This document shows positions 6,681 to 25,553 of a DNA stretch of 64,000 nt, one piece after another; the first letter of the stretch is position 1, and each line of letters opens with the position of its first letter. A model generated the notes under the pieces. It was given only the letters and a program-made list of their open reading frames with translations, searched no databases and was not told the origin of the DNA. The DNA lies in the IMG/VR virus record IMGVR_UViG_3300034200_001961, one strand, 5' to 3'. The translations under genes and the position numbers were made by a program. This DNA is from an uncultured virus (IMG/VR IMGVR_UViG_3300034200_001961). Lineage: Duplodnaviria; Heunggongvirae; Uroviricota; Caudoviricetes.

Positions 6681-9600
6681 ATGACGAATTGGTCGCAGGA
6701 TGGCGCCCCATCGTTCAACCGACCTGAGCTGGTTCGCTTCGATTCGCTGCGCGACAGCAAGGACCTCGGGGCGATCACCGACATCAAGGCCCACCTGTCC
6801 GGCTTCATCGGCGCCGAAGCCGGCTCTCAAAGCCTGTTTTTCTCTTTCCAGCTGCTTGTGCCTGGTGCCATCCAGGTCCAGACCGTCACAGGTAGCAAGT
6901 GGACCGCTCGCTTTGTCTCCGCCTCCCTGCGCTCGGAGTCCGGCAGTATCGGCTTGGACGATCGCGGCAACGCCCGTGGTGTCGACATTGTCAACAGCAT
7001 CGACGCTGACGAGGCGCTGGCTCCTTTCCCGCCCGGGAAATACACCGTGGTGGTTTCCTGCTCCCAGTGGCAGTCAACGCCTTTCGAGTTGGTCCTGCGG
7101 GTCAACCCGACCACCAGACTGCATGCCGACATCACTGGCCGCGGCGGGCTTGGACGGTACACCCGCTTGCGCGTGGCTGTTGCCCGCCTTAGCGGCGCGC
7201 TCACCGGCCTCGGCCAACTCCGGGCGCCAGGCTCGGGCTTGTTTTCGGGCCGCCGCGACCGCCCTCTTGTCGGCGGCTTCCTCGCCGGTGGGGGCGCGCT
7301 AACGGGCAAGCTTTCGATTCGTGAACCTCTACGCAGCCTGTCTGGCGCCTTTCTTGCCGGCCGCGGCGGCCTTGGAGCTTCGACAGTGGTTTCAAGCAAC
7401 CTGGGCCCCAGGATGTGGGCCTCCAGACTTGTGACCCCAACAGAGACGGCAGATAGCGCCAGCTACGCCAGCGTAGCCTTGAGTGAGGCCGATTACAGTC
7501 TCCACGCTTTTTACTATCTCCCGCCTGGATCTCCCAGCAGCCAGCGGCGGCTTGCGGTAACTTACCGCGCCCCTAATGGACAGGTGCTATGGAGCCGTCT
7601 TACTGATATTTACTGCTTAACCAATGATACGCAGGGCTGGAAAGTGCTCGCCTTGACCGGTGGCGACTTCCTCTTGTTCAGTCAAAGCCAGGCGGCCTTC
7701 GGCGGCCTACTTGCAATTCGCATCGGACGAGACGGAGTTATTGCTTGGAAGCGACAATTTGGAGCTCGTATCAATCCTGTGATTATTGGAGGTAGCAACA
7801 ACGGCAGCGAGATCGAGCAAATCAGTGACGCAGCCCTGCAGCCTTCGTTGAATCGGGTTACATTCGCCGTTGTCATAGGCGGCTTCACTCCTGGCTATAT
7901 CACGCTTGACCTTAACACTGGGGCTGCTGTTTCGGCTCGCGCGTTAAGTGGTGGCACCATGCAGACTGGCCATATAGTTTTTTTTGACAGCGGCGTCACT
8001 CTTAACGCCCCCTTGATCAAGGCGGACGGCCGATTTATACTGACTGGTAGCAAAAGAGGCCAGCCAGCCTACACATGGACCGTGGAATGCGATAGCAACC
8101 TTACCGGCGTCAAGACGTTTTACAAATACACTGACGGCACTAGCCTCGTTTTCGACGGCAGCGCAGTGCTGCATACGGATGGCTCTGTCACGATTGTAGG
8201 AAGTACTCAAATTAGCAACGGGAGCAGAGCGAGCCTCGACTCCACTTTATTGCAGCTTGCCCCAGACTTGACGATCCGTCGCCGCGTTACCGGCGCTGGC
8301 GACTCTGTCCTTTCCGGACAGGCGGCGTTGGCGGCCACCGATACTCTAGGCGCTCTGCATTACGGCAACTCCTATGGCCTCTACTCGCGGGACTACGAGG
8401 GCGACCTCACCTATCGCCATACAACTTTTGTTGGGCTGCCGGGGCGTATTGATCAGATCTCCGTCACCAAGCCTGGGCCCTGGTTCAACATTGCCAGCCA
8501 GTGGGGCATCCTGGCCACTTCCACTGCTCCCAATCAGCCAGCGCTGGGAACAGTGGTGGTAGGTTTCGAGGTAGACATGGCGCCCACAACTGTCGCTAAT
8601 GGGCTGAACTACAGCATCACTATCGGCACTTCTGAGAACGTCCCGCAAGCCCGCCAGGTTGTGCCGGCCGTGGTCGCCCTTGACCTTGACGAAAACGACG
8701 GTGGCATTGTACCGATTGCGTTCGTTTCTTTAATAGTCGTCCTTAACACAAGTACACCTACCTGGAACCCAGTCTTTGCTGATGCCAGTTCAATTCTTGC
8801 CTGGGAGCTGACATCCAGCACGATTCGCCGTGGAATCTCTAGTGGATTTCCTCAACTGGCGATTAAGCCCGACCCTGCGATAGAGCCAGACCCTTTAGCT
8901 CAGTTCGTTGTTTTCCATCTGCCAGGCACCGGTATTCCTGACACGAACTTCTTTGTCGACCACTCTCGATTCGCTCACCAACCGATTCCGCTTGGCAACG
9001 TCAGGTACTCAACTGAACAAGCCCTTTACCCAGACCTTGGCGGCTTTTTCGAGCGCACTTCTATTCGCTTTGACGGCACCGAAGACGCAATTGCCTACGC
9101 GCCATCGCCGGCTTTTCGTTTTGGCAGGGAAAATTTTACAATTGAAACCAAAATTTTTCGGCTCAATAGCAACCCTTGCATCCTGTTTAGCAACAGCCAG
9201 GTTAGCGATCCAGGAGCCCATAGCAATAGTTTTTACCTGGCTCTCGACGCTGATGGGATCCTTGAGATCTTTTCGATAGGACGCGGCCGGCTTTCCCCCG
9301 TTAACTCTAGGTCCCCGAGGCGCACCGTGCCTTACGGCGCTTGGTCTCACGTTGCCCTAACAAGAGAGGATCAAATATGGCGCGTTCACATCAATGGCCA
9401 GGCTGACGCAGCGGCCTGGCGTTACGACCTGGATCTAAGCGCTGGCGCCTTACTGATTGGTCGGGGGACTGAGATCCCTACAGACGGGCGCTGGTCTACA
9501 GGCAATGGCATCACTGTCGGCGCCAACTACTTTCCCTTCACCGGCTTCATGGCCGACATTCGAATCACCAAGGGAGCTGCTCGCTATCACCGCAACTTTC

Positions 9601-12089
9601 AACCCCGCGCCGCTCCGATTCAATACCTTCCCGCGGGGCCTCCTGCAAGCTCGCCAGCAGGAGCTGAGCCTGCCGAGGCAGGCGCGGCCACCCCCGACCT
9701 GGCTTTCAACCGGGTCCTGTTGTTCGCCCGGATGAACGGCAGCGACAACGTCTTCCGCGACAGCGGCCCTTACGACCACAGCCTAATCCCCTTCGGCAAC
9801 GTCACACAAATCCCTGGCGGCAAATGGGACGGCAGCCAGGGGGCCTTCGACTCTTTTGGCGACTGGGTAGAGGTGCCTGCCAACCCCGTGCTGGCCCTGG
9901 GGACAGGCGACTTTACGATTTCGATGTGGGCAAAGCGCACCGGCGAAGGCCAAGAAGCCGACTTCTTCCAGGCCCTGCTGGACAGCCGGACTACCGAGCC
10001 TGAATCTCAGTTCTGCCTGCGCATCAACCGCAGCGTCACCGGCCGGCAGTTGTGCCTCTATGTCGGTGGGGCAATTCGAATCTTGGGCCAGCCCATGGCC
10101 ATCAACGTTCGCTACCACGTCGCAGTGGTTCGCAGGAGCGGGATCACCTCTCTCTACATGAACGGGGTTCCTGCCGGCAACACCTGGGCTGATGCCACCA
10201 ACTACACCAGCACCAGCTGGACGATTGGCCGAGCCCGGTTTGCTGCAGGAGCCGACCAGTGGTACTTCCAGGGCCACTTAAACGATGTCCGGATTGAGCG
10301 CGGTGCGCTCTACGACGGTGCCTTCATTCCTCCGACCGCTCCGACCGGATCCCCTCCATCGGCTACGGCACGCTACTGGCGGCTAGTGGATTTGCGCCCC
10401 TACCAAGGCTCAAGCGGCGTCTTTTCGCTTTCTGAGATTGCGTTGCATCGGGGCCGCGACCGGCTGCCTGGAACCACCACGACCAGCCTGCCGGCGCCCA
10501 GCTCCGGTCTGCTGGTCAGCACTCAAGACTTAAGCGCCACCTTGAACTGCGACTGGGGCCGGGCCCCTATGGAGCAGATCGGCAGCTGGATTCAAATCGA
10601 TGCCGGCGCACCTGTCACAGCCGACGGCTTGCGCCTCGCCACGGCCGGGCAGTCTGCCCAGGGCGTCTCAGGTTTCACGCTGCAATATTCCAGTGACGGG
10701 GCCAACTGGGCCACCCTGGGGCATGTCGCCAGCATCCCGCTAAGCGATTCAGTTCTAGGCCCTCGGCTGGGTTTCGTGCCCCTGCCCGGGCCGCCCACCG
10801 ACATTGTTGATGCTGATTTTGATCGCGTCGTTCTCCTGCTGCGCGGCAATATACCCAACGCTCTTGCAACTGACAGCGGCCCCAGAAGATTGACGGTCGA
10901 CAACGTCAATGTTTCAGCCAGCGCGATCGAAAGCGCTCAAGGCGGGCAAAGCATGCTGTTCAGTGCTGCCAGCGGCTCCTACTTGACCCTGGGCGCGACC
11001 GGCGGTGATACGGGCCGGCGCTCGGTGTACTTCTCTTTCGGGGCTGGTGCCCTGACGGTTGAGATGGACATTTTTCCGTTGACGGTCCCGGCCAACTATT
11101 TCTCGCTGTTTAATACCAATGCCATTGGTGATTCGGCCAGCTACGCCAACGGTTTTCAGTGGGTCTTGACAAGCGCAATGAAGCTAGATCTTTACATCAA
11201 TGGAGCATTCCGTGGCGTTTCACTAGGGTCAGTTAGCCTGCGTCAATGGAGCCGACTGCGCTTAAGCCGCGACTCTACCGGCATTTGGCGGTACAACATC
11301 AATGGCGTGGTCGATTCAACCACTTTTGCTAATACGGTCGACCTATCGAGCCGCGCCTTCACGATTGGCCGGGACGGGGCCGACACCGGCGCTCCCTACT
11401 TCTACAACGGCTACATGGACGAGGTGAAGGTCACCCGCGGACTGGCTCGCGGCAATACGATACGCATCACCAATCTTGCCTGGACACCGAGCGCCCGAGG
11501 ACGCCTGATTGGGGGCTTGGTCACGGGGCGGGCCATGCACAGTATCCTGTTCGCCCGCGGGCGACTGAGCGGAACGCTGGCTACCGTGGCTGTAGATGGC
11601 TCGCAAAGCGCAGCATCTATCACCAGCCTGCCTGACGCAAGCCTGCCGCTGACTGGGTTCGAGCGAGTTGCGATGGACCAGGCCGGAGCGACCGTATCGG
11701 CCGGGGGGTTTGTGACAGGCCAGACATACCGGATCGCCGGTGTTGGGTCCACCGATTTCAGGCCGATCGGGGCCGCCTCCAACACGATTGGTCTGATCTT
11801 CAAGGCCACAGGCCCAGGGACAGGCAACGGCACTGCGGTCGTAATCAGGACCGTGGACGCAGCAATCCGAGACATCGCTGGCCTTGCCGCGGCGGCCAGT
11901 GTCGTTGAATTTGACACCACGGGCACCCCAAACACGATTTACGTCGGGCGAGCTCCTGTCGGCACGGACCGGACAGCGGCGGGCTGGACGGTAGAGCGGA
12001 CTACTTTTACGGCTCAAGGCATTAAAGTGGGCGAGACGCTGACTGCCACCGGCGCCTGGACTGCACGAACTTCTCTCGCCTACGCCTGA
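6681..12089 (+). CDS. Large tail fibre/receptor-binding protein with about three LamG/concanavalin-A-like domains
   Basis: 1802 aa; repeated FTIE/FTISMW...WSHVAL/YHVAVVR...GFMADIRITKG/GHLNDVRI/GYMDEVKVTRG LamG motifs; ARYWRL...FTLQYSSDGANW discoidin-like segment. Confidence 0.85.
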   Translation: MTNWSQDGAPSFNRPELVRFDSLRDSKDLGAITDIKAHLSGFIGAEAGSQSLFFSFQLLVPGAIQVQTVTGSKWTARFVSASLRSESGSIGLDDRGNARGVDIVNSIDADEALAPFPPGKYTVVVSCSQWQSTPFELVLRVNPTTRLHADITGRGGLGRYTRLRVAVARLSGALTGLGQLRAPGSGLFSGRRDRPLVGGFLAGGGALTGKLSIREPLRSLSGAFLAGRGGLGASTVVSSNLGPRMWASRLVTPTETADSASYASVALSEADYSLHAFYYLPPGSPSSQRRLAVTYRAPNGQVLWSRLTDIYCLTNDTQGWKVLALTGGDFLLFSQSQAAFGGLLAIRIGRDGVIAWKRQFGARINPVIIGGSNNGSEIEQISDAALQPSLNRVTFAVVIGGFTPGYITLDLNTGAAVSARALSGGTMQTGHIVFFDSGVTLNAPLIKADGRFILTGSKRGQPAYTWTVECDSNLTGVKTFYKYTDGTSLVFDGSAVLHTDGSVTIVGSTQISNGSRASLDSTLLQLAPDLTIRRRVTGAGDSVLSGQAALAATDTLGALHYGNSYGLYSRDYEGDLTYRHTTFVGLPGRIDQISVTKPGPWFNIASQWGILATSTAPNQPALGTVVVGFEVDMAPTTVANGLNYSITIGTSENVPQARQVVPAVVALDLDENDGGIVPIAFVSLIVVLNTSTPTWNPVFADASSILAWELTSSTIRRGISSGFPQLAIKPDPAIEPDPLAQFVVFHLPGTGIPDTNFFVDHSRFAHQPIPLGNVRYSTEQALYPDLGGFFERTSIRFDGTEDAIAYAPSPAFRFGRENFTIETKIFRLNSNPCILFSNSQVSDPGAHSNSFYLALDADGILEIFSIGRGRLSPVNSRSPRRTVPYGAWSHVALTREDQIWRVHINGQADAAAWRYDLDLSAGALLIGRGTEIPTDGRWSTGNGITVGANYFPFTGFMADIRITKGAARYHRNFQPRAAPIQYLPAGPPASSPAGAEPAEAGAATPDLAFNRVLLFARMNGSDNVFRDSGPYDHSLIPFGNVTQIPGGKWDGSQGAFDSFGDWVEVPANPVLALGTGDFTISMWAKRTGEGQEADFFQALLDSRTTEPESQFCLRINRSVTGRQLCLYVGGAIRILGQPMAINVRYHVAVVRRSGITSLYMNGVPAGNTWADATNYTSTSWTIGRARFAAGADQWYFQGHLNDVRIERGALYDGAFIPPTAPTGSPPSATARYWRLVDLRPYQGSSGVFSLSEIALHRGRDRLPGTTTTSLPAPSSGLLVSTQDLSATLNCDWGRAPMEQIGSWIQIDAGAPVTADGLRLATAGQSAQGVSGFTLQYSSDGANWATLGHVASIPLSDSVLGPRLGFVPLPGPPTDIVDADFDRVVLLLRGNIPNALATDSGPRRLTVDNVNVSASAIESAQGGQSMLFSAASGSYLTLGATGGDTGRRSVYFSFGAGALTVEMDIFPLTVPANYFSLFNTNAIGDSASYANGFQWVLTSAMKLDLYINGAFRGVSLGSVSLRQWSRLRLSRDSTGIWRYNINGVVDSTTFANTVDLSSRAFTIGRDGADTGAPYFYNGYMDEVKVTRGLARGNTIRITNLAWTPSARGRLIGGLVTGRAMHSILFARGRLSGTLATVAVDGSQSAASITSLPDASLPLTGFERVAMDQAGATVSAGGFVTGQTYRIAGVGSTDFRPIGAASNTIGLIFKATGPGTGNGTAVVIRTVDAAIRDIAGLAAAASVVEFDTTGTPNTIYVGRAPVGTDRTAAGWTVERTTFTAQGIKVGETLTATGAWTARTSLAYA

Positions 12090-12092
12090 GCC

Positions 12093-15000
12093 TTGGCCAA
12101 CCAGACGGTCACCACCGCCGTCAATTATGACGCTGCATCGATCAGCGGCTTGCTTGATGGTGAACTCATCACGGTCAACGGCGGGTCGCTGACAATCAAC
12201 GCGGACACGCGCTGGAACCAGCAGGCGGCGGTCTTCGGAAACATCACTGTTTCATCTACGCTCGGCGGCGTGGTGGCGATTGATGGTACGCAGGTTTGGG
12301 AAGTGCCTTTCTCTGTGGCCGTGGGGCTAGTCCCAACACAAGCTGCCCTTGGGTCCAACACGGTCACAGGAGGCACCAGCGGCGCGACAGGCGAGTTGAC
12401 TCGTGTATGGGCCAGCGGATCGTTCACCCCGGCTGCGGCGGGCGCTGTAATGCCTCTGGCGGGCTTTATCAAGCTGCGATCCAAGACTGGCAACTTTCAA
12501 GCGGGTGAAACCATTACACTGCCGGGCGGGGCCACGATTGTTGCTGCCAATACGGGCAAGCGGAGTTGGATTCATGTTGTCGGTGAGGCAAACAGAATCT
12601 TGCTTATGCCCCGTCTGGCAAGCGTGCCGATCACTGGCGACTGGTACGCCCTTGGCGCAACCGATGGCACCGACAGCCAGACAATCCAAATGCCGGTGCG
12701 GGATGAATTTCCGGCTGTGCAGATCGAGACATCACCGGGGTCGGGTGTTTACGAATGGTGGGCCAACGCGGCAGACGCTTGGAACGGCTGGTATCCGAAC
12801 AATGACAACTGGACGCTGACAAACGCCACCATCACGCGAAACGCAGTGGCAGGACCGGCAAATTATCCGGCAGGCGACAGGCTGCGGGAAACGACCGCAA
12901 ACGGCAACCACCTAGTCACCGGGATAAACCTGCAATCCGCGCAAATGGACGCCGGGTCTTACACGCACGAGGCCATTGTCAAATCTGACGGACGGCAGTG
13001 GTGCGTGGTGCAAATATCCACCAACGGCGGCGCTGATCGGTACGGCGCGCTTGTCGATCTGTCGGCTGGCACGATTATCGCCAACCCCAGTGTCGGTAGC
13101 CCGACGGGTGTTTCTTCCTCAATCACATCATTGGACAGCGGTTATTATCAAGTCAATGTGACGCTGACTCATGTTACTGGCGATCTGAGGAGTTTCGTGG
13201 CAATCGCCGACTCGGCAACCCCAACCTATACAACCGGCTTGCCCACCTACACCGGCAACACGGGGCAGGGCATCATCCTTGGGTTTTCGACCGTCAAACA
13301 GGCCACACACGCTTTCATTTCGACAGACGCTCGGGGCAAGTTCTTTTACTCGGACCCCTTTGCTGGAACCATTCAACTTGCCAAGCGCGGGTCAAACAAC
13401 GCTGGCCTGAAACCTGCGAGCGGTTGCGCTATTCGGATTCCAAACATTATCCTCGGAACGTCTTCTTCGGGTGACTACACGTCGCAACACTTGTCGTCCA
13501 CAACCGGGTCAAACGCCGGGGTCGCACGCTACGCCTTTGGTGTGACAAACGCTGTCGTAGATTTTGACAAGGTATCCTGCAACTGGTCACTTAACGGCAA
13601 CGCTCCGACCTCTTGGAAAGTGCAAAACTCAGGCTGGAGCCTAGTGATCTCGTTGCTCAATTTCTACTCGGAAATCAGGAACGTCTGCATTGCCCCCACG
13701 CTTTACACAAGGCTGGTCGCCAATGGCGCATACACCCACCAAAATAGTGCCAATGCGTATATGTATGATAGCCGCGTAGTGTCGCGTGGGCAAGGGGCTC
13801 AAGTTTATACTGCCACGGCGTGCGCAAATATCAACGCATACAGAACCAGTTTTGAGTCGATCGGACCAAATCAAGGTAAAGCAATTCGCAGCCCATTCCA
13901 CGGAATCGCCGCTCAGGTGCAGTCTGCGGGCGGGGAATTTGTGGACTGCACGACTATTGGTGGGCGTTCGACATTCAACGCGCAAAACTTTCTTGTCAAG
14001 AACCTGACGTATTGTGACTACATGATCGGCACAACTACGGCTGTAGCTTCTACGGCAATCGGGGTGCAGGGGACAAGCATCACGGTTGACAATATCCTGC
14101 CATTTCCGGGGGTGGCAAACAATCACCCCTTTACGGAGTACGTGGTTACGACCGGATTTATTGCCAACCTTGTGCTGAAGAATATCGGCAGTCCGACATC
14201 CCCGCTGAACGTTGGCACTGTAAATCCTTGCGGGGCTGTACTTACTCAGGGCGCTGCGGGAACAACAGCCGAAGTGCGGCGCGTCTATACAACAAACCTT
14301 CGCCTCGGTGTGGTTTCGACGGCTGCTGCCAACCCGGTTTTGAATCTGTTTGATGTCTGGGGTGATGGAACAACGCCGCAAACCCTGGCGACGGCAAACA
14401 TCAACTCGCGTGGGGGGCGGTGGACAAACCAGCGCGGGGCAAACGCGGTATGTACGGGTTCCCATTGGGACGACGCCTATAACTCAACCACTACTGGCCG
14501 CATAACGATTAGCGGCAACGAACCATCTGTTGCTTCGGCGGCTCAATGTTCTTTCACGCTCGGCACAGGCTCAGGGTTTAACGGCAACGGCTCGGTTGTT
14601 ATCTCGCGCCTGACTGACGTGGTGACTTGGACAACCCCCTATAAGATGTACGGTCACAATGCCTTCGCAGGCGGCTGTGCGCTTCTGGGCACCGACTGCC
14701 AGAACCTGATCTTTGAGTACAAGGTCGATACAGGGTCGGGTTTCGGCGGATCGTGGGCTTTTTTGGCAAACACTGTGCGCCGGGCAGGTGGCGGGACAAG
14801 CGGGACGAATACGGTCACAGTCACAACGGCGGATCGAACTGCACTTACGCGCCAGCCCCAAGTGGGGGATTTTGTGCAAACAGGTTCTTTCCGACTGCCC
14901 GCCAATACGACCGTTACGAACATCTCGGGCGATGTCATCACCTGCTCGAACAACTTCACGGCCAACCTTACGACCAGTGAGTTTGTGACCTTCTCGCCGG

Positions 15001-15401
15001 TCAACGTGGCTGTCAGCGCAGCCAATGGATATGCTTTGCAAGTCCGCACCTACCCAACCGCAGCGGCTACTACAACGCTGCTGACGGCCTTCACAATGGG
15101 ATTGCAGACCGACGCCACGGCGCAGCAAATCCCGCATCCGCTTCCGGGGTCATTGGTAAACATCACCAATCTTGTCCCGCAATCGCGGGTGAAGGTCAGC
15201 CGGGTGGACACCGGCGTAACCTTGCAGCAAGCATCGTGTGGCGCAAGTACAAGTCTGGCCTTTGATTTTCAGTACACAGGCGCGGTGGAGGTGGAGGCGC
15301 GAAACACGGGCGGCACTCCAACGTATGAGCCGTGGGTGACACAAGTCACCATTTCACCTGCGACGCCGACAAACATCGCCGCGCTTCAAGAACCCGACTA
15401 A
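12093..15401 (+). CDS. Tail fibre/tail spike-like protein
   Basis: 1102-aa Thr/Gly/Asn-rich beta-strand composition, TTG start directly after the fibre gene. Confidence 0.7.
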   Translation: MANQTVTTAVNYDAASISGLLDGELITVNGGSLTINADTRWNQQAAVFGNITVSSTLGGVVAIDGTQVWEVPFSVAVGLVPTQAALGSNTVTGGTSGATGELTRVWASGSFTPAAAGAVMPLAGFIKLRSKTGNFQAGETITLPGGATIVAANTGKRSWIHVVGEANRILLMPRLASVPITGDWYALGATDGTDSQTIQMPVRDEFPAVQIETSPGSGVYEWWANAADAWNGWYPNNDNWTLTNATITRNAVAGPANYPAGDRLRETTANGNHLVTGINLQSAQMDAGSYTHEAIVKSDGRQWCVVQISTNGGADRYGALVDLSAGTIIANPSVGSPTGVSSSITSLDSGYYQVNVTLTHVTGDLRSFVAIADSATPTYTTGLPTYTGNTGQGIILGFSTVKQATHAFISTDARGKFFYSDPFAGTIQLAKRGSNNAGLKPASGCAIRIPNIILGTSSSGDYTSQHLSSTTGSNAGVARYAFGVTNAVVDFDKVSCNWSLNGNAPTSWKVQNSGWSLVISLLNFYSEIRNVCIAPTLYTRLVANGAYTHQNSANAYMYDSRVVSRGQGAQVYTATACANINAYRTSFESIGPNQGKAIRSPFHGIAAQVQSAGGEFVDCTTIGGRSTFNAQNFLVKNLTYCDYMIGTTTAVASTAIGVQGTSITVDNILPFPGVANNHPFTEYVVTTGFIANLVLKNIGSPTSPLNVGTVNPCGAVLTQGAAGTTAEVRRVYTTNLRLGVVSTAAANPVLNLFDVWGDGTTPQTLATANINSRGGRWTNQRGANAVCTGSHWDDAYNSTTTGRITISGNEPSVASAAQCSFTLGTGSGFNGNGSVVISRLTDVVTWTTPYKMYGHNAFAGGCALLGTDCQNLIFEYKVDTGSGFGGSWAFLANTVRRAGGGTSGTNTVTVTTADRTALTRQPQVGDFVQTGSFRLPANTTVTNISGDVITCSNNFTANLTTSEFVTFSPVNVAVSAANGYALQVRTYPTAAATTTLLTAFTMGLQTDATAQQIPHPLPGSLVNITNLVPQSRVKVSRVDTGVTLQQASCGASTSLAFDFQYTGAVEVEARNTGGTPTYEPWVTQVTISPATPTNIAALQEPD

Positions 15402-18521: not shown

Positions 18522-18661
18522 AGCTTCGTCCTCCGCAGCCATTCGAGCATGATCTCTTCCAGCTGCTGGCTGGATGTCGCGCAGGCGCGAGGATCCTCCA
18601 AGCGCTGTAGGTACCATAGAAGATCACGACAGCTCCGCCCGCGGGCTGAGTCGCCGCTCAT
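18518..18661 (-). CDS. Small hypothetical protein
   Basis: MSGDSARGRSCRDLLWYL..., ATGA coupling with 18658..18993. Confidence 0.45.
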   Translation of the reverse strand: MSGDSARGRSCRDLLWYLQRLEDPRACATSSQQLEEIMLEWLRRTKL

Positions 18662-18993
18662 ACTGCCTCCGGCCTGTCCCGCAGGCAGTGGTGCATGGCC
18701 AGCTTGCGCATGTCCTCCAGGTGACGCTCCGTGGCCGCCAGGGAGCCCGCTGAGCCGCTTCCTTCGCTGGGGCGCAGGCCGCACTGCCAGAGCTGGTCCA
18801 TCAACCCCTGGGCTTCGGTGGAGACCAGGGTGAACAAGGGGCGGTGCGGGAAGCATTGATCGGATGGAAGCGGCTCCATCGCCAGGCCCGTCGCGATCGA
18901 AAAATCGTTTCCTGCTCGACCGCCCAAGCTTCCCAGCTGGAACTCGATGGAGCTCCCCCAGGCGGCGCGTTGGGCGTAGATCTTGAAGGTCAT
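18658..18993 (-). CDS. Hypothetical phage protein
   Basis: MTFKIYAQR...AQGLMDQLWQCGLRPSEGSGSAGSLAATERHLEDMRKL, a pattern common in phage proteins. Confidence 0.65.
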   Translation of the reverse strand: MTFKIYAQRAAWGSSIEFQLGSLGGRAGNDFSIATGLAMEPLPSDQCFPHRPLFTLVSTEAQGLMDQLWQCGLRPSEGSGSAGSLAATERHLEDMRKLAMHHCLRDRPEAV

Positions 18994-19021: not shown

Positions 19022-19651
19022 TCACGACGGCAGCCCCGCCCGCTCGAGGTCACCGGCCATCTGCCGCCCCTGCCAGGTGGCCGAGCGCATCAGCCGCTCC
19101 TGCACGTCAGCTGCCGTATGGCCGTCCCACTCGGGGGCCAACGGCAGCTCTATGACGTGCGAAATGGCTCTGATCGCTCCCAGGTCGCTCACCGGCAAGT
19201 GATAGGTGACACGCTCCCACTGCTGCTCACCCGTGCGGACGTCCATGCCGGCCACAAAGAACCCCTCGGACATCCTGCCGTCGCCGTGCTTGAGCGAAAA
19301 CCAGGGATTGCAGTCCTCGGCCGTGGCGGCCATCAGCGCCAGGAACAGCGCGTGCCGGTGCTCGTAGAGCTCGCGAAAGGTGTGGTACCCGTCGCTGGTG
19401 TCCTCGTTGGCCGGGCGTCTCCTGGCCTCGTCATAGCCCGTCATGATGGCGTTGGCGAACCAGCCGAGCATGGCGTCGGTGGTGTCGACCTGCAGGCCGT
19501 CACCGTGCAACTGGGCAAGCCTGGTGTCCGGGTTGATCGCCACGAACGCCTTGGCCCAAGCCATCGCATCCATCGAGCAGTGCCAGTGCTTCCCGTCGGA
19601 ACCGCGAATGCCGTCTGCGGGGCCAGGAATCGGGTGCATCGGTAGATCCAT
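19022..19651 (-). CDS. tad1: Tad1-like immune-signal sponge fused to an N-terminal unknown domain
   Basis: C-terminal half carries SDGYHTFRELYEHRHALF, WFSLKHGDG, FFVAG, TYHLP and APEWDGHT, the signature motifs of the Tad1 (WDGH) family. Confidence 0.75.
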   Translation of the reverse strand: MDLPMHPIPGPADGIRGSDGKHWHCSMDAMAWAKAFVAINPDTRLAQLHGDGLQVDTTDAMLGWFANAIMTGYDEARRRPANEDTSDGYHTFRELYEHRHALFLALMAATAEDCNPWFSLKHGDGRMSEGFFVAGMDVRTGEQQWERVTYHLPVSDLGAIRAISHVIELPLAPEWDGHTAADVQERLMRSATWQGRQMAGDLERAGLPS

Positions 19652-19653
19652 GA

Positions 19654-20832
19654 TCAGTAGTCCCAAGTGACGAAAGGTGAAACGCCGGCCCTCGGGTGGA
19701 ACCCGCCGCCGTTGCGCTTGTCGATGTGCAGGAACCCTTTGCGGCGTCCGTCGCCTAGGGCACCGCTCCAGCGAGGCTTAAGCCACCAGAACATACCATC
19801 GAGATCGCCGTCGGCTGGGCAAATGTCCAAGGCGTCTCCCACGACATGTCGGCTGTTTGCCACCCCGCCGGCCGCCCGGTTGTAGGGCTCAGGCCGGTAG
19901 CCGCTAGTGAGAAGCACTGCTCCGTTCCAGTGGTCCCGGATCGCATCAGCGTCACGAATCACCGCCAGGATGTTCTTTTCCTCGGGCGAGCCAGCTGCCG
20001 GGCGCCGGCGCAAGTCTCCCCGCAGGACTTCGCGAACCGTGAAGTACCGGCCCACGGGCGCGTTCAGATCGGTCCAGTCCACGGTGGTGATCCGCCCGAT
20101 CGCGGGAACTGGCGCGACCTCGGGGGCAAAGTGGGGCCCGAAAATGTACCACTGGCCGGGCTCCCCCTCGACGGTCACCAAGTCGTGCGCGTCGCCCGCA
20201 ATCTCTTCGATTGAGGTAAAGCGGATCAACTGATTCGGCGCCACCTTAATTCGCCCAGAGGCAGAAAGGTAGCTGCTGGGGATTGGAGCCTTTTTCAGGA
20301 ACGTGTCCTGCGTGGCCTTCAAGGTCTGGGTCATGACGGTTTCAAGGTTCCAAAGGGCTGCTTCACGCTGACGACGGTTGGTGAGTTCAGGCGAAAGTCT
20401 ACCAAGGTTGTCGCGATCGAACTTCAGCAACAAGGACTCGATTGCGCCCGGATAGCTCCAGATCGAGCGCAGCTGCCGGCGCCTATGCACTTGCTCGTGC
20501 TGCACCCCCCGCTCATCGCCGCAGCCCGGGCCCAACAAAAAGGCCAGCACCGCCGCTCGCTGCGACGGCCCCAGCAGATCCCAGCCTGCCAGGGTCTTGC
20601 GGGCCAGCTCGTCGCAAGAAAGCAGTGCCTGCGACAGCAGGGCATCCGCCTGCGCCTGGGTCGCCCGATCCCCCAGGATCACCCCGGTCCAGCCGTGCAT
20701 CGTCAACCGATACCCAACTTCCGCAACCCCGGACTCGTTCAGGCGTGCCTTTTCGATCAGGGGCGTCGTTTCGCGGACCAGATCGGCGGCCTGGCTCAGC
20801 GCCCGGGTGCCACGCTCAGGCAGGGGCCCCAA
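19654..20832 (-). CDS. Endolysin: degenerate lysozyme-like domain + linker + peptidase M15
   Basis: TSGYRPEPYNRAAGGVANSRHVVGDALDI and GFLHID are M15 zinc peptidase motifs; LTNRRQREAALW resembles a GH24 lysozyme C-terminus; exact start uncertain. Confidence 0.85.
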   Translation of the reverse strand: MGPLPERGTRALSQAADLVRETTPLIEKARLNESGVAEVGYRLTMHGWTGVILGDRATQAQADALLSQALLSCDELARKTLAGWDLLGPSQRAAVLAFLLGPGCGDERGVQHEQVHRRRQLRSIWSYPGAIESLLLKFDRDNLGRLSPELTNRRQREAALWNLETVMTQTLKATQDTFLKKAPIPSSYLSASGRIKVAPNQLIRFTSIEEIAGDAHDLVTVEGEPGQWYIFGPHFAPEVAPVPAIGRITTVDWTDLNAPVGRYFTVREVLRGDLRRRPAAGSPEEKNILAVIRDADAIRDHWNGAVLLTSGYRPEPYNRAAGGVANSRHVVGDALDICPADGDLDGMFWWLKPRWSGALGDGRRKGFLHIDKRNGGGFHPRAGVSPFVTWDY

Positions 20833-21040
20833 CGGCCTGGGCCAAAACAGCGGTGACTGCCGCCTGGTCGCTCATATCGACTCCGGCCGCCTGAGCGATC
20901 GCCGCCACCCCGGCATGGCCGGGAAGCTCTCCGCCCTGGGACAAGACGTGCTGCTTGAGCCCGTTCTTGTAGGCCAAAGCCATAGCCGAACCCGGTTGCT
21001 GCAAATGGGGGGCCGAGGCCACGAAGTTGGAAGCGTTCAT
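20816..21040 (-). CDS. Small hypothetical protein
   Basis: 74 aa, TGATG-coupled to 21040..22206. Confidence 0.55.
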   Translation of the reverse strand: MNASNFVASAPHLQQPGSAMALAYKNGLKQHVLSQGGELPGHAGVAAIAQAAGVDMSDQAAVTAVLAQAVGAPA

Positions 21041-22206
21041 CAGTTCTCACCCATCAGCTGGCGGGACATCAGGGCTTGGGGTAGCGCGTCCATGTTCTGG
21101 CTGTAGAGCGCAGCAGCGGCCCTGGGGTCGCTGTCCATCAAAGCGAAAACGGTCGCCAGGATGTCATTGCCGTTCGCGCTGCCACCCTGCCCCGGGGGCC
21201 GCATCTCCAGTTGCGGGCGCTGATACAAGGACTGGCCTTGGGGCTCGGGGGGCTGAGCCTGGAACTGGGGTTGACCCTGAGCCTGGAGCTGGGGATAGCC
21301 CTGGGGCGTGCCCCCAACGGGGTACTGGTCGTAGCTTTCCATCAGCTCGGGGGCTCGCGCACCGCTCCTGGGGGGCAGCATGCGTCCGCTGGATTCGCCG
21401 TAGGCCACTTCGGCGGCCAGGCGGTCACGAGGACCTTCCTGGACGGGAGCTGCAGGCAGCCCACCGGGGCCACCGGGGCCGAAAAACTCAGTAGTGTACT
21501 GGGCCAGCAGGGAAGGGCTTGAGAGGATAGTGTGATAAGCCGCGTTGTCCTCGGCGGCTGCGGTGATCAAGGTGTGAGCGTTCTGCAGGTTTTGGTGAAG
21601 CTGCTGGGCCTGGGCAGTCACCTCGAGAGTCTGCTGGGCCTGACGCAACAGAGCGTCCTCAATCACGCAGGAATAATGATTGAGCAGCGCCGGGGCCTCG
21701 GGGCCAAAATGCTGCAGAACCTCAAGACTTGCGCCGCTGAGGCCGTCCAGGTACTGGTCGCCCGTTGGTGCGGCGGTAGCCAACTGCGAAGGGGTCACCG
21801 CCCGCTGCTGGAGCTGGGCCTGGGCCGGATGCGGCTGGGAGTAGGGCGCGGGGCTGTAAACCGGTTGCTGGAACACCTGGGGCGGGGCCATCACCCCAGC
21901 CGGAGCTGGAGCCGGGGCGGGCACTGGCTGGGTCTGCGGCCAGAACTGAACCGGGGCCTGGTAGCTGGGCGTCGCGCTCGAAGAGCTGTAAAGCCCTTGA
22001 AGGGCCGCGTCCCATTGGCTCACCGCCTGGGGCGCCGGTTGGGAATAGGGCACTACCAGGGCCTGTGGCGCCGGAGCCGTCTGGTACGAAGGTGGGTGGC
22101 TCGCCGCCGGTGCTTGCTGGTAGGCCTCTGGCGAGGCGGGAGCGCTGGAAGGCATCGAGTCCTGCGGGATCGCCGGAGCCTGAGGAGTCGCGGTAGGTCC
22201 CTGCAT
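21040..22206 (-). CDS. Putative capsid scaffolding/assembly protein
   Basis: 388 aa, Pro/Gln/Ala-rich with a central coiled coil, downstream of portal; function inferred. Confidence 0.6.
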   Translation of the reverse strand: MQGPTATPQAPAIPQDSMPSSAPASPEAYQQAPAASHPPSYQTAPAPQALVVPYSQPAPQAVSQWDAALQGLYSSSSATPSYQAPVQFWPQTQPVPAPAPAPAGVMAPPQVFQQPVYSPAPYSQPHPAQAQLQQRAVTPSQLATAAPTGDQYLDGLSGASLEVLQHFGPEAPALLNHYSCVIEDALLRQAQQTLEVTAQAQQLHQNLQNAHTLITAAAEDNAAYHTILSSPSLLAQYTTEFFGPGGPGGLPAAPVQEGPRDRLAAEVAYGESSGRMLPPRSGARAPELMESYDQYPVGGTPQGYPQLQAQGQPQFQAQPPEPQGQSLYQRPQLEMRPPGQGGSANGNDILATVFALMDSDPRAAAALYSQNMDALPQALMSRQLMGEN

Positions 22207-23954: not shown

Positions 23955-25553
23955 TCAGTATTCGACCTCGACCGCGGAGCGGCTCATCAGTGACTGAACC
24001 ACAATGTTAAGACTGTCCGCGCAGTCGTCATTCGTGCAGTGGCCGAAATTGACGACCTCATCGATCATCACCTTGAAGTCCCGGTACCGGTTGAACCGGA
24101 CCTTGCCGGTCTGCAGCAGCCCCATTATTCCCCGCAGGCGCGCCATTTTGTCCCCCCTCAGCCCCTTGATCGGGCTGGGCCGCAGGTTGAACAGCTGCCG
24201 CTCCTCGTGGCAGATTCGCTGGAAATCCCCGCTGAACGACTTCTGGTAAGCCACTGCTTCCGGCCAGATCGTCACCTCGCTGGACGTCGCAAAGAACTGA
24301 GGCTTCCCGTCGCTCAGCGGCTCCCCCTCCCGCAGCAGGTTCCACTCGACCAGCAGCTCGCAGAGCGCATCGATCTTCTCGAGGTTGCCGATCGTGCGCA
24401 GCCGCCGGTAGTCGATTATGTAACAGGCATCCCCCAGGCGGCCGGCCAGCGTGAACACGGTCCAGTCGTGCCGTTCGGTAAGCCCGGCCGACAGGTCGAT
24501 CCCGACTCCGATCTCGTCGTAGACCTCGGGGAGCTCGACCATGCGGAACAGGCTCGGGTTGATCCCCAACTCGGTGGTTGACACCGGTTGGTTGAGGTAC
24601 TGATACGCGAAGGCGACGTGGTCCTTGGTCTGCTTGCCCAGCAGATACTTGAGACTCCACATCCCCGGCCAGTAGCTGCGTGGCGTGCCGTCGTCGCTGT
24701 ATTCGATCGCCGCCTGCCTGATCACCTTCCAGCCGTTCTTGGGTACGAAGGCGGTCGCGAACATGTCGTCAAAGTGGAACCGGGTACCCAGTACCAGCGA
24801 GCGGCCGCCCTCGAACCGGGTGGGCTCAATCACCGCGCTCCAGTTGTGCTCCATCTCCCGGCGCACGTCCGGATTCGCGATGTCCGACTGGCTCTTGATC
24901 AGATCGTCCACTACGATTAGGCTGGCCCGCTTCGAGGTGATTGCGCCTCGCAGGCCGGCGCAAGCCAGGGTGAAGGCGTCCTCCCCTCGCACGTCGATCC
25001 CCGCGAAAGTGAAGTCGATCTCCCATAGCTCATCCCCCTTCTTCTGCCGGCTGAGGCGCACATTCGGAAAGATCAGCCGGTAGTCGTCCGAATTGATGAT
25101 CGACTTGACCGCCGCGCTCTTGGCCTTTGCCACCTTCACGTTGTAGGACACGTAGAGAACGCGCAGCAGCTTGTGCTCCAGGGCGTGCTTGCCGATCAGC
25201 CAGGCCAGCAGCATCGCCACGAAGGTGGACTTGGCGCTTCCCCTGGGGCTCAGCAGCGCCGTATCGGGCCCAGCGATATGGCTCAGGTGCTCGTTGCTCT
25301 GGCCTGTGAGAAAGACCTCGTACCACTCGCGCATGTGCCGCGGCGGCGGCTTGCCCATGCGGGTGCAGAATGCCTCGAAACTCTCGCGGGCTGCCAGGAT
25401 CTCCGCTGGCGTCTCGTCGGCAACCTCCTTTACCTCGGGCGCGCCCTGAGCGAAGGGCACGACAGGGTTGGCCGCCGCGGCAGAAGCCATGGCCGACACC
25501 GCAGCTTCACGGGCAGCCCGGCGGTAAGCGAGAACGCGAGACGTGGCCGGCAT
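23955..25553 (-). CDS. terL: Terminase large subunit
   Basis: Walker A PRGSAKST, Walker B LIVVDD, GTRFHFDD, FAYQYLNQP, nuclease GIDLS...DWT and NDDCADS. Confidence 0.93.
   Translation of the reverse strand: MPATSRVLAYRRAAREAAVSAMASAAAANPVVPFAQGAPEVKEVADETPAEILAARESFEAFCTRMGKPPPRHMREWYEVFLTGQSNEHLSHIAGPDTALLSPRGSAKSTFVAMLLAWLIGKHALEHKLLRVLYVSYNVKVAKAKSAAVKSIINSDDYRLIFPNVRLSRQKKGDELWEIDFTFAGIDVRGEDAFTLACAGLRGAITSKRASLIVVDDLIKSQSDIANPDVRREMEHNWSAVIEPTRFEGGRSLVLGTRFHFDDMFATAFVPKNGWKVIRQAAIEYSDDGTPRSYWPGMWSLKYLLGKQTKDHVAFAYQYLNQPVSTTELGINPSLFRMVELPEVYDEIGVGIDLSAGLTERHDWTVFTLAGRLGDACYIIDYRRLRTIGNLEKIDALCELLVEWNLLREGEPLSDGKPQFFATSSEVTIWPEAVAYQKSFSGDFQRICHEERQLFNLRPSPIKGLRGDKMARLRGIMGLLQTGKVRFNRYRDFKVMIDEVVNFGHCTNDDCADSLNIVVQSLMSRSAVEVEY

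What the first reader, a model, noticed from the sequence alone, without database searches (positions are those of the whole stretch)
19022..19651. Tad1-like sponge fused to an uncharacterised WAxxF...WFANA domain, encoded right behind the endolysin
Seen: the C-terminal ~125 aa carry SDGYHTFxELYEHR and APEWDGHT. The N-terminal ~80 aa form a separate domain (MDAMAWAKAFV...TDAMLGWFANAIMTGYDEARR). Established: Tad1 proteins sequester Thoeris gcADPR signals and some cyclic oligonucleotides, and anti-defence domains are often fused to each other. Inference: the N-terminal domain is a candidate second immune-signal sponge or anti-defence module. Its location in the late/lysis operon is unusual and could match defences triggered by structural proteins.
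Basis: partly seen in the sequence, partly recalled or inferred. Interest (0 to 1): 0.75.

Follow-up and report, generated by a model that had tools for sequence, protein, structure and literature searches.

The report
WDGH-domain phage protein, not Tad1
The gene is real and has two domains, but its C-terminal half is a widespread phage "WDGH" domain of unknown function rather than the Tad1 sponge, and its N-terminal half is a common small phage module that has no name yet.

Summary
The ORF (window 19022-19651, minus strand, 209 aa) and all quoted motifs are there. It starts 2 nt after the stop of a two-domain endolysin.

The Tad1 label fails:
- The C-terminal half is Pfam PF25311 "WDGH" (91 bits against a cut-off of 27).
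- Neither the protein nor a WDGH profile finds any Tad1 chain among all PDB sequences.
- The predicted strand and helix order differs from published Tad1.

The N-terminal 83 aa are a separate two-helix module (WAKxF...GWFANAIMxGYD). It has 181 relative clusters, mostly standalone proteins of 53-100 aa. It has no convincing Pfam, PHROG or PDB match.

The fusion of the two modules is confined to this freshwater phage lineage, whose nearest isolate by terminase is Synechococcus phage S-EIVl.

Function is untested. WDGH has about 20 invariant polar residues. Elsewhere it is fused to Tad2-like and Sequestin domains (both proven Thoeris sponges) and to Lar. My best inference (about 0.4) is a counter-defence domain that binds or processes a nucleotide-like ligand. 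No anti-defence link was found for the N-module itself.

The scan has met WDGH before on other DNA (a crAss-like Lockin fusion and a P22-like gene).

The parts
19022..19651 (-). Whole gene: 209-aa two-module protein (ATG 19651, TGA 19022-19024)
   Evidence: P0002 (98% identical, 209 aa) starts at the same Met. GC3 is 0.86. The protein is soluble and acidic (pI 5.25, max KD19 1.07).
19403..19651 (-). N-terminal module, residues 1-83: short hairpin plus two helices; motifs MDAxxWAKAF and GWFANAIMxGYDEARRR
   Evidence: phmmer of this part alone finds 181 representative clusters at E<=0.001. Alignment A3 invariants are W32, W64, F65, A66, N67, G72. AF2 pLDDT is 85.5. No convincing Pfam, PHROG or PDB match.
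19442..19465 (-). GWFANAIM core motif of the N-module
19085..19402 (-). WDGH domain (Pfam PF25311), residues 84-189
   Evidence: Pfam E 5.7e-26, 91 bits against cut-off 27. PHROG 3392 and 3769, both of unknown function. AF2 pLDDT 91-98.
19355..19396 (-). SDGYHTFRELYEHR motif: first DG-x-HT cap and the start of helix 1
19115..19129 (-). WDGHT motif: second DG-HT cap, before the C-terminal helix
19654..20832 (-). Upstream gene: 392-aa lysozyme-like + Peptidase_M15_3 endolysin; its stop is 2 nt before this gene's ATG
18658..18993 (-). Downstream 111-aa gene that follows the fusion gene in every lineage member held
   Evidence: 47% identical to L017:1718-2074, E 1e-27. Found after the fusion gene in L001-L004, L015, L017 and L102. 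1088 homologues with no precomputed Pfam family among the 120 listed.

Best explanation
Shown: this is a real, soluble, acidic 209-aa phage protein made of two independently mobile modules. Residues 84-189 are a WDGH domain (Pfam PF25311), a family found in hundreds of phages with no described function. Residues 1-83 are a member of an unnamed two-helix module family (WAKxF...GWFANAIMxGYD) that mostly occurs as standalone proteins of 53-100 aa. The gene is translationally coupled to the endolysin gene. A small conserved gene of unknown function follows it. Inferred: it is an accessory counter-defence or host-takeover protein whose working part is WDGH. WDGH has a dense invariant set of polar residues (5 His, 3 Asp, 1 Glu, 2 Arg, 3 Tyr, Ser, Thr). 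These include two DG-x-HT motifs, each capping a long helix, an arrangement typical of phosphate or nucleotide binding sites and of catalytic centres. Elsewhere WDGH is joined in one polypeptide to proven immune-signal sponges (Tad2-like, Sequestin). I therefore propose that it binds, and perhaps cleaves, a nucleotide-derived molecule such as a defence signal. The His/Asp-rich pattern fits an enzyme or metal site slightly better than a passive sponge. The N-module would add self-association or target binding. This last step is the weakest, because the module has no link of its own to defence.
For: Identity: Pfam WDGH at 91 bits against cut-off 27. All 121 aligned homologues carry PF25311. Eleven BFVD matches have E<=0.001, and the four of them that carry a family name are WDGH proteins of isolated phages. 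Invariant residues: S6 D7 G8 Y9 H10 T11 F12 E14 L15 Y16 H18 R19 L22 W37 H42 D44 G45 G55 Y70 H71 D96 H98 R106 in 33 standalone members, with similar results in 121 sequences. There are two DG(x)HT motifs at residues 87 and 176, each before a predicted helix. Fusion partners among the 121 WDGH proteins: Lar_restr_allev 3, Tad2-like 1 (P0065), crAss001_48/PF21825 1 (P0078), RyR 1, DUF551 1. PF21825 is Sequestin, an experimentally shown anti-Thoeris sponge, and PF11195 is Tad2; that paper found Sequestin by the same fusion logic (passages of bioRxiv 10.1101/2025.07.12.664507). In locus L117 the gene just upstream of the WDGH-Sequestin fusion carries a Tad2-like domain (E 3.7e-20). N-module: 181 clusters; 75 distinct ORFs in fetched loci with GC from 30% to 69%; both modules occur standalone.
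Against: There is no experiment on any WDGH or N-module protein. Literature searches for 'WDGH domain', PF25311, DGYHTF and WFANAI found 0 papers, and 0 hits in the 7 held supplements of the sponge paper. Fusions to proven sponges are rare: 2 of 121. The one found among 42 viral clusters is the same protein as P0078. Lar is a promiscuous zinc ribbon. Many WDGH neighbours are not defence-related: P22 coat and tail accessory genes, a terminase, RNA and DNA ligases, a dCTP deaminase-like protein, a dNMP kinase, and glycosyltransferases. Both modules are acidic overall (family median net charge -4.4 and -5.0), whereas known sponges have positive pockets. No PADLOC or NCBIfam hit. The 3D clustering of the invariant residues could not be checked because no coordinates are exposed. 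The N-module has no fusion to any known anti-defence family in 149 + 60 proteins.
Confidence: 0.4

Rival explanations
1. Tad1-like sponge: the C-terminal half is a member or structural relative of Tad1 and sequesters gcADPR.
For: Only a size of about 125 aa, a mixed alpha/beta composition, and phage origin. WDGH is sometimes fused to other Thoeris sponges.
Confidence: 0.02
2. WDGH is an enzyme of nucleotide or nucleic-acid metabolism or RNA repair, for example a phosphoesterase working with ligases. It would not target a defence signal directly.
For: The His/Asp/Glu-rich invariant set looks catalytic. Neighbours of WDGH genes in 42 viral clusters include RNA ligase (L118, L119), DNA ligase (L109), a dCTP deaminase-like protein (L103), a dNMP kinase (L164) and GIY-YIG (L138). 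An N-module fusion gene in L008 follows a PHROG 'RNA ligase'. In phage Faust the N-module gene sits beside ThyX and a methylase.
Against: There is no sequence or fold likeness to any known hydrolase, kinase or ligase. The neighbours are heterogeneous, and each type is seen in only 1-3 of the 42 clusters. This window's own neighbours are an endolysin and a small unknown gene.
Confidence: 0.2
3. It is a morphogenesis-linked or virion-associated accessory protein, for example one packaged or acting at assembly or lysis. This would explain why the genes sit in late operons.
For: Here the order is TerL, portal, further genes, endolysin, then this gene, all on one strand. In epsilon34 the WDGH gene lies between the head protein and the head-tail adaptor. 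In Streptococcus phage phiARI0468-4 it lies between the portal-type gene and the minor capsid gene. Five of the 42 viral clusters (26 loci) are flanked by P22 coat, tail accessory or stabilisation genes, and L141 is flanked by a terminase. N-module genes lie within about 2 kb of TerL in 5 of 8 loci examined.
Against: Other WDGH and N-module genes lie in accessory or early-type blocks (LASTA, Faust, and the ligase and kinase neighbours). The conserved downstream partner lies in the replication region of Burkholderia phage CSP3. In relative L017 the upstream gene is not an endolysin. Borders of terminase and head genes are, by my own knowledge, common insertion sites for accessory genes.
Confidence: 0.12
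4. It is a protein-binding inhibitor of a host protein (host takeover) with no small-molecule ligand. The N-module and WDGH would be two binding surfaces.
For: Both modules are small, acidic and soluble. They are shuffled among many phage proteins along with DUF551, the C-terminal domain of lambda Ea22 (an early accessory protein; search listing and abstracts only).
Against: About 20 invariant polar residues, including 5 His, across hosts from Listeria to cyanobacteria fit a universal small ligand or chemistry better than a host-specific protein surface.
Confidence: 0.18

Closest known systems
WDGH domain proteins (Pfam PF25311; PHROG 3392 and 3769), e.g. Salmonella phage epsilon34 gene 6 / ST104 ORF54, Klebsiella phage LASTA gp61, cyanophage S-2L S2L_55
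   Same: The same domain, with all signature residues. They are phage-encoded, often sit in late operons, and in S-2L lie near a lysozyme gene.
   Different: Those proteins are standalone or carry other extensions. None of the 190 isolated-phage records was seen to carry this N-module, and S2L_55 lacks it. All are of unknown function.
Tad1 (Thoeris anti-defence 1; PDB 7UAV, 7UAW)
   Same: A small phage protein of mixed alpha/beta composition.
   Different: No sequence match. No fold match found. A different order of secondary-structure elements. A different Pfam family.
Sequestin (PF21825) and Tad2 (PF11195) sponges, as fusion partners of WDGH
   Same: WDGH shares polypeptides with them (P0078 and P0065) and a locus with both (L117). 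Sequestin was itself discovered through such fusions.
   Different: This protein contains neither domain. Its N-module is unrelated to Sequestin (hhalign probability 0.08%).
Standalone N-module proteins, e.g. Streptomyces phage Faust gp10 (72 aa)
   Same: The same two-helix module with the WAKxF and GWFANAIM motifs.
   Different: They lack WDGH. They lie in a block of small genes beside ThyX and a methylase, and are annotated as hypothetical.

Membership tests
Tad1 (Thoeris anti-defence 1) | Detectable sequence similarity to Tad1 proteins | tested here: not met
   phmmer of the protein and hmmsearch with a 33-sequence WDGH profile against all PDB chain sequences at E<=10 return no Tad1 chain. 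The best hits are TldD (E 1.1) and an Fc receptor (E 0.52).
Tad1 (Thoeris anti-defence 1) | Fold: an N-terminal four-stranded antiparallel sheet followed by two long C-terminal helices (Leavitt et al. preprint, passages) | tested here: inconclusive
Tad1 (Thoeris anti-defence 1) | A homo-oligomer with gcADPR pockets at protomer interfaces; inhibits Thoeris | not testable with these tools
   Needs biochemistry and phage assays.
WDGH domain (Pfam PF25311) | Score above Pfam's gathering cut-off | tested here: met
   91 bits against 27, E 6e-26, covering profile positions 2-96 of 97.
WDGH domain (Pfam PF25311) | Signature residues (SDGYHTF, ELYxHR, HxDG, YH, WDGHT) | tested here: met
   All invariant columns of A4 are present in the window protein.
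Unnamed N-module family (defined here) | WAxxF helix plus GWFANAIMxGYD helix; invariant W32, W64, F65, A66, N67, G72 | tested here: met
   Alignment A3 of 55 sequences; 181 clusters at E<=0.001.
Sequestin (PF21825) | The N-module is a Sequestin-type helical sponge domain | tested here: not met
   No Pfam hit. hhalign of A3 against the Sequestin-bearing P0078 gives probability 0.08%.
Phage endolysin (upstream neighbour) | Peptidoglycan hydrolase domains | tested here: met
   Peptidase_M15_3 at 51.6 bits against 23.2; Phage_lysozyme at 22.7 against 22.3; PHROG 894, 28234 and 7, all annotated endolysin.

The most novel reading that the evidence does not exclude
WDGH is a new, very widespread family of phage domains that neutralise nucleotide immune signals, by sequestration or more likely by metal-dependent cleavage. 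The WAKxF-GWFANAIM module is a second, independent small helical counter-defence module. This cyanophage lineage would have joined the two into one bifunctional inhibitor, expressed together with the lysis and late genes.
Probability: 0.15. Interest if true: 0.75.

Novelty: new variant of a known kind. Interest (0 to 1): 0.4.

Why it matters
WDGH is common in phages. It is in 190 isolated-phage records, from Listeria, Bacillus, Salmonella, Streptococcus, Klebsiella and cyanobacterial hosts, and in more than 550 viral-contig stretches. It has no known fold relative and no function, yet it is joined to two proven Thoeris sponges. If it acts on immune signals, it would be a major counter-defence family that has been missed so far. 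The N-module is a separate finding. It is a strongly conserved phage domain of about 60 aa, found in hundreds of metagenomic proteins, that is missing from Pfam and has at most one faint PHROG hit. It deserves a family entry and a functional test. The practical correction is that the motif pair DGYHTF / WDGH marks PF25311, not Tad1.

Tried and rejected
- Homodimer prediction of the N-module (A3, 2 copies): no verdict, median score 0.38 against a mark of 0.42, controls 0.00. This is not evidence either way.
- RNA evidence: two metatranscriptome runs hold contigs only over parts of the endolysin gene (19821-20057, 20180-20528, 20655-20857) and none over this ORF. This says nothing about expression.
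- ESM Atlas: no usable hit for the WDGH part once PF25311 clusters were left out. The N-module's nearest clusters are viral hypothetical proteins scoring below 0.8.
- Fold searches list no Tad1, Tad2, Sequestin, Lockin or Acb chain for either model. Absence from a list does not exclude a family.
- NCBIfam and PADLOC: no hit.
- PHROGs for the N-module: 0 hits for 15 of 16 proteins. One faint hit was found (P0141, phrog_4597, E 0.005, over the module).
- The Sel1 repeat proteins among the N-module hits (P0128, P0156) are judged a helical-hairpin resemblance, not homology.
- No whole genome is held for this window.
- Holin or spanin role: rejected, because there is no hydrophobic segment.
- A dedicated two-gene cassette with the downstream gene: weakened, because that family has 1088 members, far more than the fusion lineage.
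- Search for papers on phage L Orf186 / epsilon34 gene 6: nothing relevant.
- The 3D clustering of the invariant residues could not be examined (no coordinate files).

Full report
OBSERVATION. The finding's coordinates hold a minus-strand ORF (19022-19666 from a TTG). The ATG at 19651 is the likely start. It gives 209 aa, the same start as the 98%-identical database protein P0002. It lies 2 nt after the TGA stop (19654-19656) of the upstream gene. All four quoted strings are present. The upstream 392-aa gene hits Peptidase_M15_3 (E 1.2e-13), Phage_lysozyme (E 1.3e-4) and three endolysin PHROGs. So "right behind the endolysin" is correct. Further upstream on the same strand lie the portal-sized ORF and the large terminase.

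THE C-TERMINAL HALF IS WDGH, NOT TAD1. Residues 89-194 of the 214-aa form match Pfam PF25311 "WDGH domain" at E 6e-26, 91 bits against a cut-off of 27. They also match PHROGs 3392 and 3769, both of unknown function. NCBIfam and PADLOC give nothing.
- Sequence test against Tad1: phmmer of the protein against every PDB chain sequence finds only TldD at E 1.1. A profile of 33 standalone WDGH proteins (A4) finds nothing better than E 0.52. Tad1 is deposited as 7UAV and 7UAW (passages of bioRxiv 10.1101/2022.05.03.490397).
- Model: an AlphaFold2 model built on 121 homologues is confident over WDGH (pLDDT 91-98).
- Topology: the model's element order is helix, strand, hairpin, helix, strand, helix. 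Tad1 is described as strands 1-4 followed by two long helices.
The fold comparison is therefore formally inconclusive, but the sequence test is negative.

WHAT WDGH LOOKS LIKE. A word-seeded search found 206 homologues at E<=0.001, and all 120 listed carry PF25311. tblastn finds the domain in 190 isolated-phage records: Listeria 54, Bacillus 45, Salmonella 34, Streptococcus 13, Klebsiella 8, Lactococcus 8 and others. None of the listed annotated rows gives a function.
- Invariant residues in 33 standalone members: S6 D7 G8 Y9 H10 T11 F12 E14 L15 Y16 H18 R19 L22 W37 H42 D44 G45 G55 Y70 H71 D96 H98 R106. The 121-sequence alignment agrees.
- The eponymous motif varies a little: FDGYT in P0005, WNGHT in S-2L, WDRHT in P0097.
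- The sequence shows two DG(x)HT motifs, DGYHT at residue 87 and DGHT at residue 176. Each sits just before a long predicted helix. From general knowledge, helix N-caps of this kind often bind phosphate. This is inference, and I could not check the 3D clustering because no coordinates are exposed.

LINKS OF WDGH TO COUNTER-DEFENCE. Among the 121 aligned WDGH proteins, Pfam finds these extra domains: Lar_restr_allev in 3, Tad2-like (PF11195) in 1 (P0065), crAss001_48 (PF21825) in 1 (P0078), RyR in 1 and DUF551 in 1.
- Tal et al. (bioRxiv 10.1101/2025.07.12.664507; passages read) show that PF21825 proteins inhibit type I Thoeris and name them Sequestin. They found the family because it is fused to Tad2 and Acb4.
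- In an independent fetch of 77 viral loci, which collapse to 42 distinct WDGH ORF clusters, one cluster (L117) is WDGH-Sequestin and one (L105) is WDGH-DUF551.
- L117 is identical to P0078, so the Sequestin fusion is one observation, not two. The new information is that its upstream neighbour carries a Tad2-like domain (E 3.7e-20).
- Seventeen longer WDGH proteins (376-577 aa) add only one more DUF551.
I did not test that.
Against this, such fusions are rare and WDGH neighbours are mixed. They include P22 coat and tail accessory or stabilisation genes (five clusters covering 26 loci), a terminase (L141), RNA ligases (L118, L119), a DNA ligase (L109), a dCTP deaminase-like protein (L103), a dNMP kinase (L164), glycosyltransferases (L123, L131, L145) and a second WDGH gene (L139).

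THE N-TERMINAL MODULE. Residues 1-83 alone, searched with phmmer against 1.84 billion representatives, find 181 proteins at E<=0.001. Many are 53-100 aa long.
- Of the 149 scanned with Pfam, 142 have no family at E<=0.001. The two multi-stretch hits are Sel1 repeat proteins, which I take to be a helical-hairpin resemblance.
- An alignment of 55 short members (A3) gives invariant W32, W64, F65, A66, N67 and G72, and near-invariant D28, A33, F36, A68, I69, M70 and D74.
- The module folds confidently (pLDDT 85.5) as a short hairpin plus two helices.
- PHROGs give nothing for 15 of 16 members and one faint hit (phrog_4597, E 0.005).
- hhalign against the Sequestin-bearing P0078 gives probability 0.08%.
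- Among isolated phages it is seen only in 24 records of large Streptomyces phages. In phage Faust it is the 72-aa gp10, in a block of small genes beside ThyX and a methylase.
- In fetched loci there are 75 distinct N-module ORFs of 55-574 aa, from contigs of 30-69% GC.
- Of 60 longer members, Pfam finds DUF551 above its cut-off in 2 (L022, L059) and otherwise only weak zinc-ribbon or coiled-coil hits.
- No fusion to Tad2, Sequestin, Lar or any other named anti-defence family was seen.

THE FUSION IS LINEAGE-SPECIFIC. Only P0002-P0008 and loci L001-L004, L015-L017 and L102 combine the two modules. With my own HMMs, 0 of 87 other N-module loci (554 kb) contain a WDGH gene. Only L102, a fusion relative, among 77 WDGH loci (451 kb) contains an N-module. 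Two relatives (P0005, P0008) have a third module, bearing a CWCD motif, inserted between the two.

CONTEXT.
- Host and habitat: the large terminase is 46% identical over 90% of its length to that of Synechococcus phage S-EIVl. The next hits are below 26%. Near-identical contigs reach 94 kb. The stretch recurs in lake and freshwater metagenomes from many studies. A freshwater cyanophage-like host range is an inference.
- Neighbours: in the 56%-identical relative L017 the upstream genes are a fibre-like protein and an unknown ORF, not an endolysin. So the endolysin adjacency is not conserved. The 111-aa downstream gene is conserved behind the fusion gene in every lineage member held. However, it belongs to a family with 1088 hits and no Pfam entry. 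Its only isolated-phage homologue, in Burkholderia phage CSP3, lies in the replication region.
Also in Streptococcus phage phiARI0468-4, between the portal-type and minor capsid genes. Near the lysozyme in S-2L. In a block of small genes in LASTA.
- Position of N-module genes: within about 2 kb of the large terminase in 5 of 8 loci examined (L007, L008, L011, L013, L014). L009 and L010 were left out as near-duplicates of L005 and L008.
The late-operon position is therefore typical rather than odd, and it does not discriminate between readings.

PROPERTIES. The protein is acidic (pI 5.25; N-module net charge -4.1, WDGH -7.6). It has no membrane-grade hydrophobic stretch (max KD19 1.07). Codon differences from close variants are few: 8 synonymous to 5 non-synonymous, and 10 to 8. 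This is only weakly informative.

VERDICT. The Tad1 assignment is wrong. What is there is a WDGH-domain protein with a novel N-terminal module. My best mechanistic reading (confidence about 0.4) is a counter-defence accessory protein whose WDGH domain binds or processes a nucleotide-like ligand. The rivals are a nucleotide or RNA-repair enzyme (0.2), a protein-binding host-takeover factor (0.18), a morphogenesis-linked role (0.12) and Tad1 (0.02). No paper mentions the WDGH domain, PF25311 or either motif. Supplements of other preprints could not be seen.

Noticed in passing
window 18658-18993 (-): A 111-aa gene with the motif LWQCGLRPSEGSGSAGxLAATxxHLEDMR follows the fusion gene in all lineage members. 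It belongs to a very large family (1088 hits) with no Pfam or PHROG entry. Its one isolated-phage homologue, in Burkholderia phage CSP3, lies in the replication region.
   Followed up: partly
P0005 and P0008 (relatives; alignment A1 columns ~80-170): Two relatives carry a third module, inserted between the N-module and WDGH, with the motif ARG[IV]AAxCWCDxxTxxxEMDAxLAxxFAxRxAPLM. It was not characterised.
   Followed up: no
L117:1787-3513: A viral contig where a 297-aa protein ending in a Tad2-like domain is followed directly by a WDGH-Sequestin fusion (identical to P0078). This looks like an anti-Thoeris gene island.
   Followed up: partly
L139:2433-3312: Two WDGH genes in tandem in one viral contig.
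   Followed up: no
L007, L008, L011, L013, L014: N-module genes lie within about 2 kb of the large terminase gene in 5 of 8 unrelated viral contigs. In L007 the gene starts 8 nt after TerL.
   Followed up: partly
window 21040-22206 (-): A 388-aa protein rich in Pro, Gln and Ala lies between the portal and the endolysin. It has no family hit and could be a scaffold or internal protein.
   Followed up: no
window 23955-25553 (-) and whole window: The large terminase is 46% identical to that of Synechococcus phage S-EIVl. The window is 62% GC, mostly unannotated, and recurs in lake metagenomes. It probably represents a poorly sampled freshwater cyanophage lineage of about 90 kb.
   Followed up: partly
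window 6681-15401 (+): Two very large fibre-like proteins of 1802 and 1102 aa. The first has three Laminin_G_3 stretches and an F5/8 type C domain.
   Followed up: no
L008:7428-7973: A 182-aa PHROG 'RNA ligase' (phrog_14301, two stretches) lies directly upstream of an N-module fusion gene. Its size would suit a LigT-type 2H phosphoesterase (my recollection, not tested).
   Followed up: no
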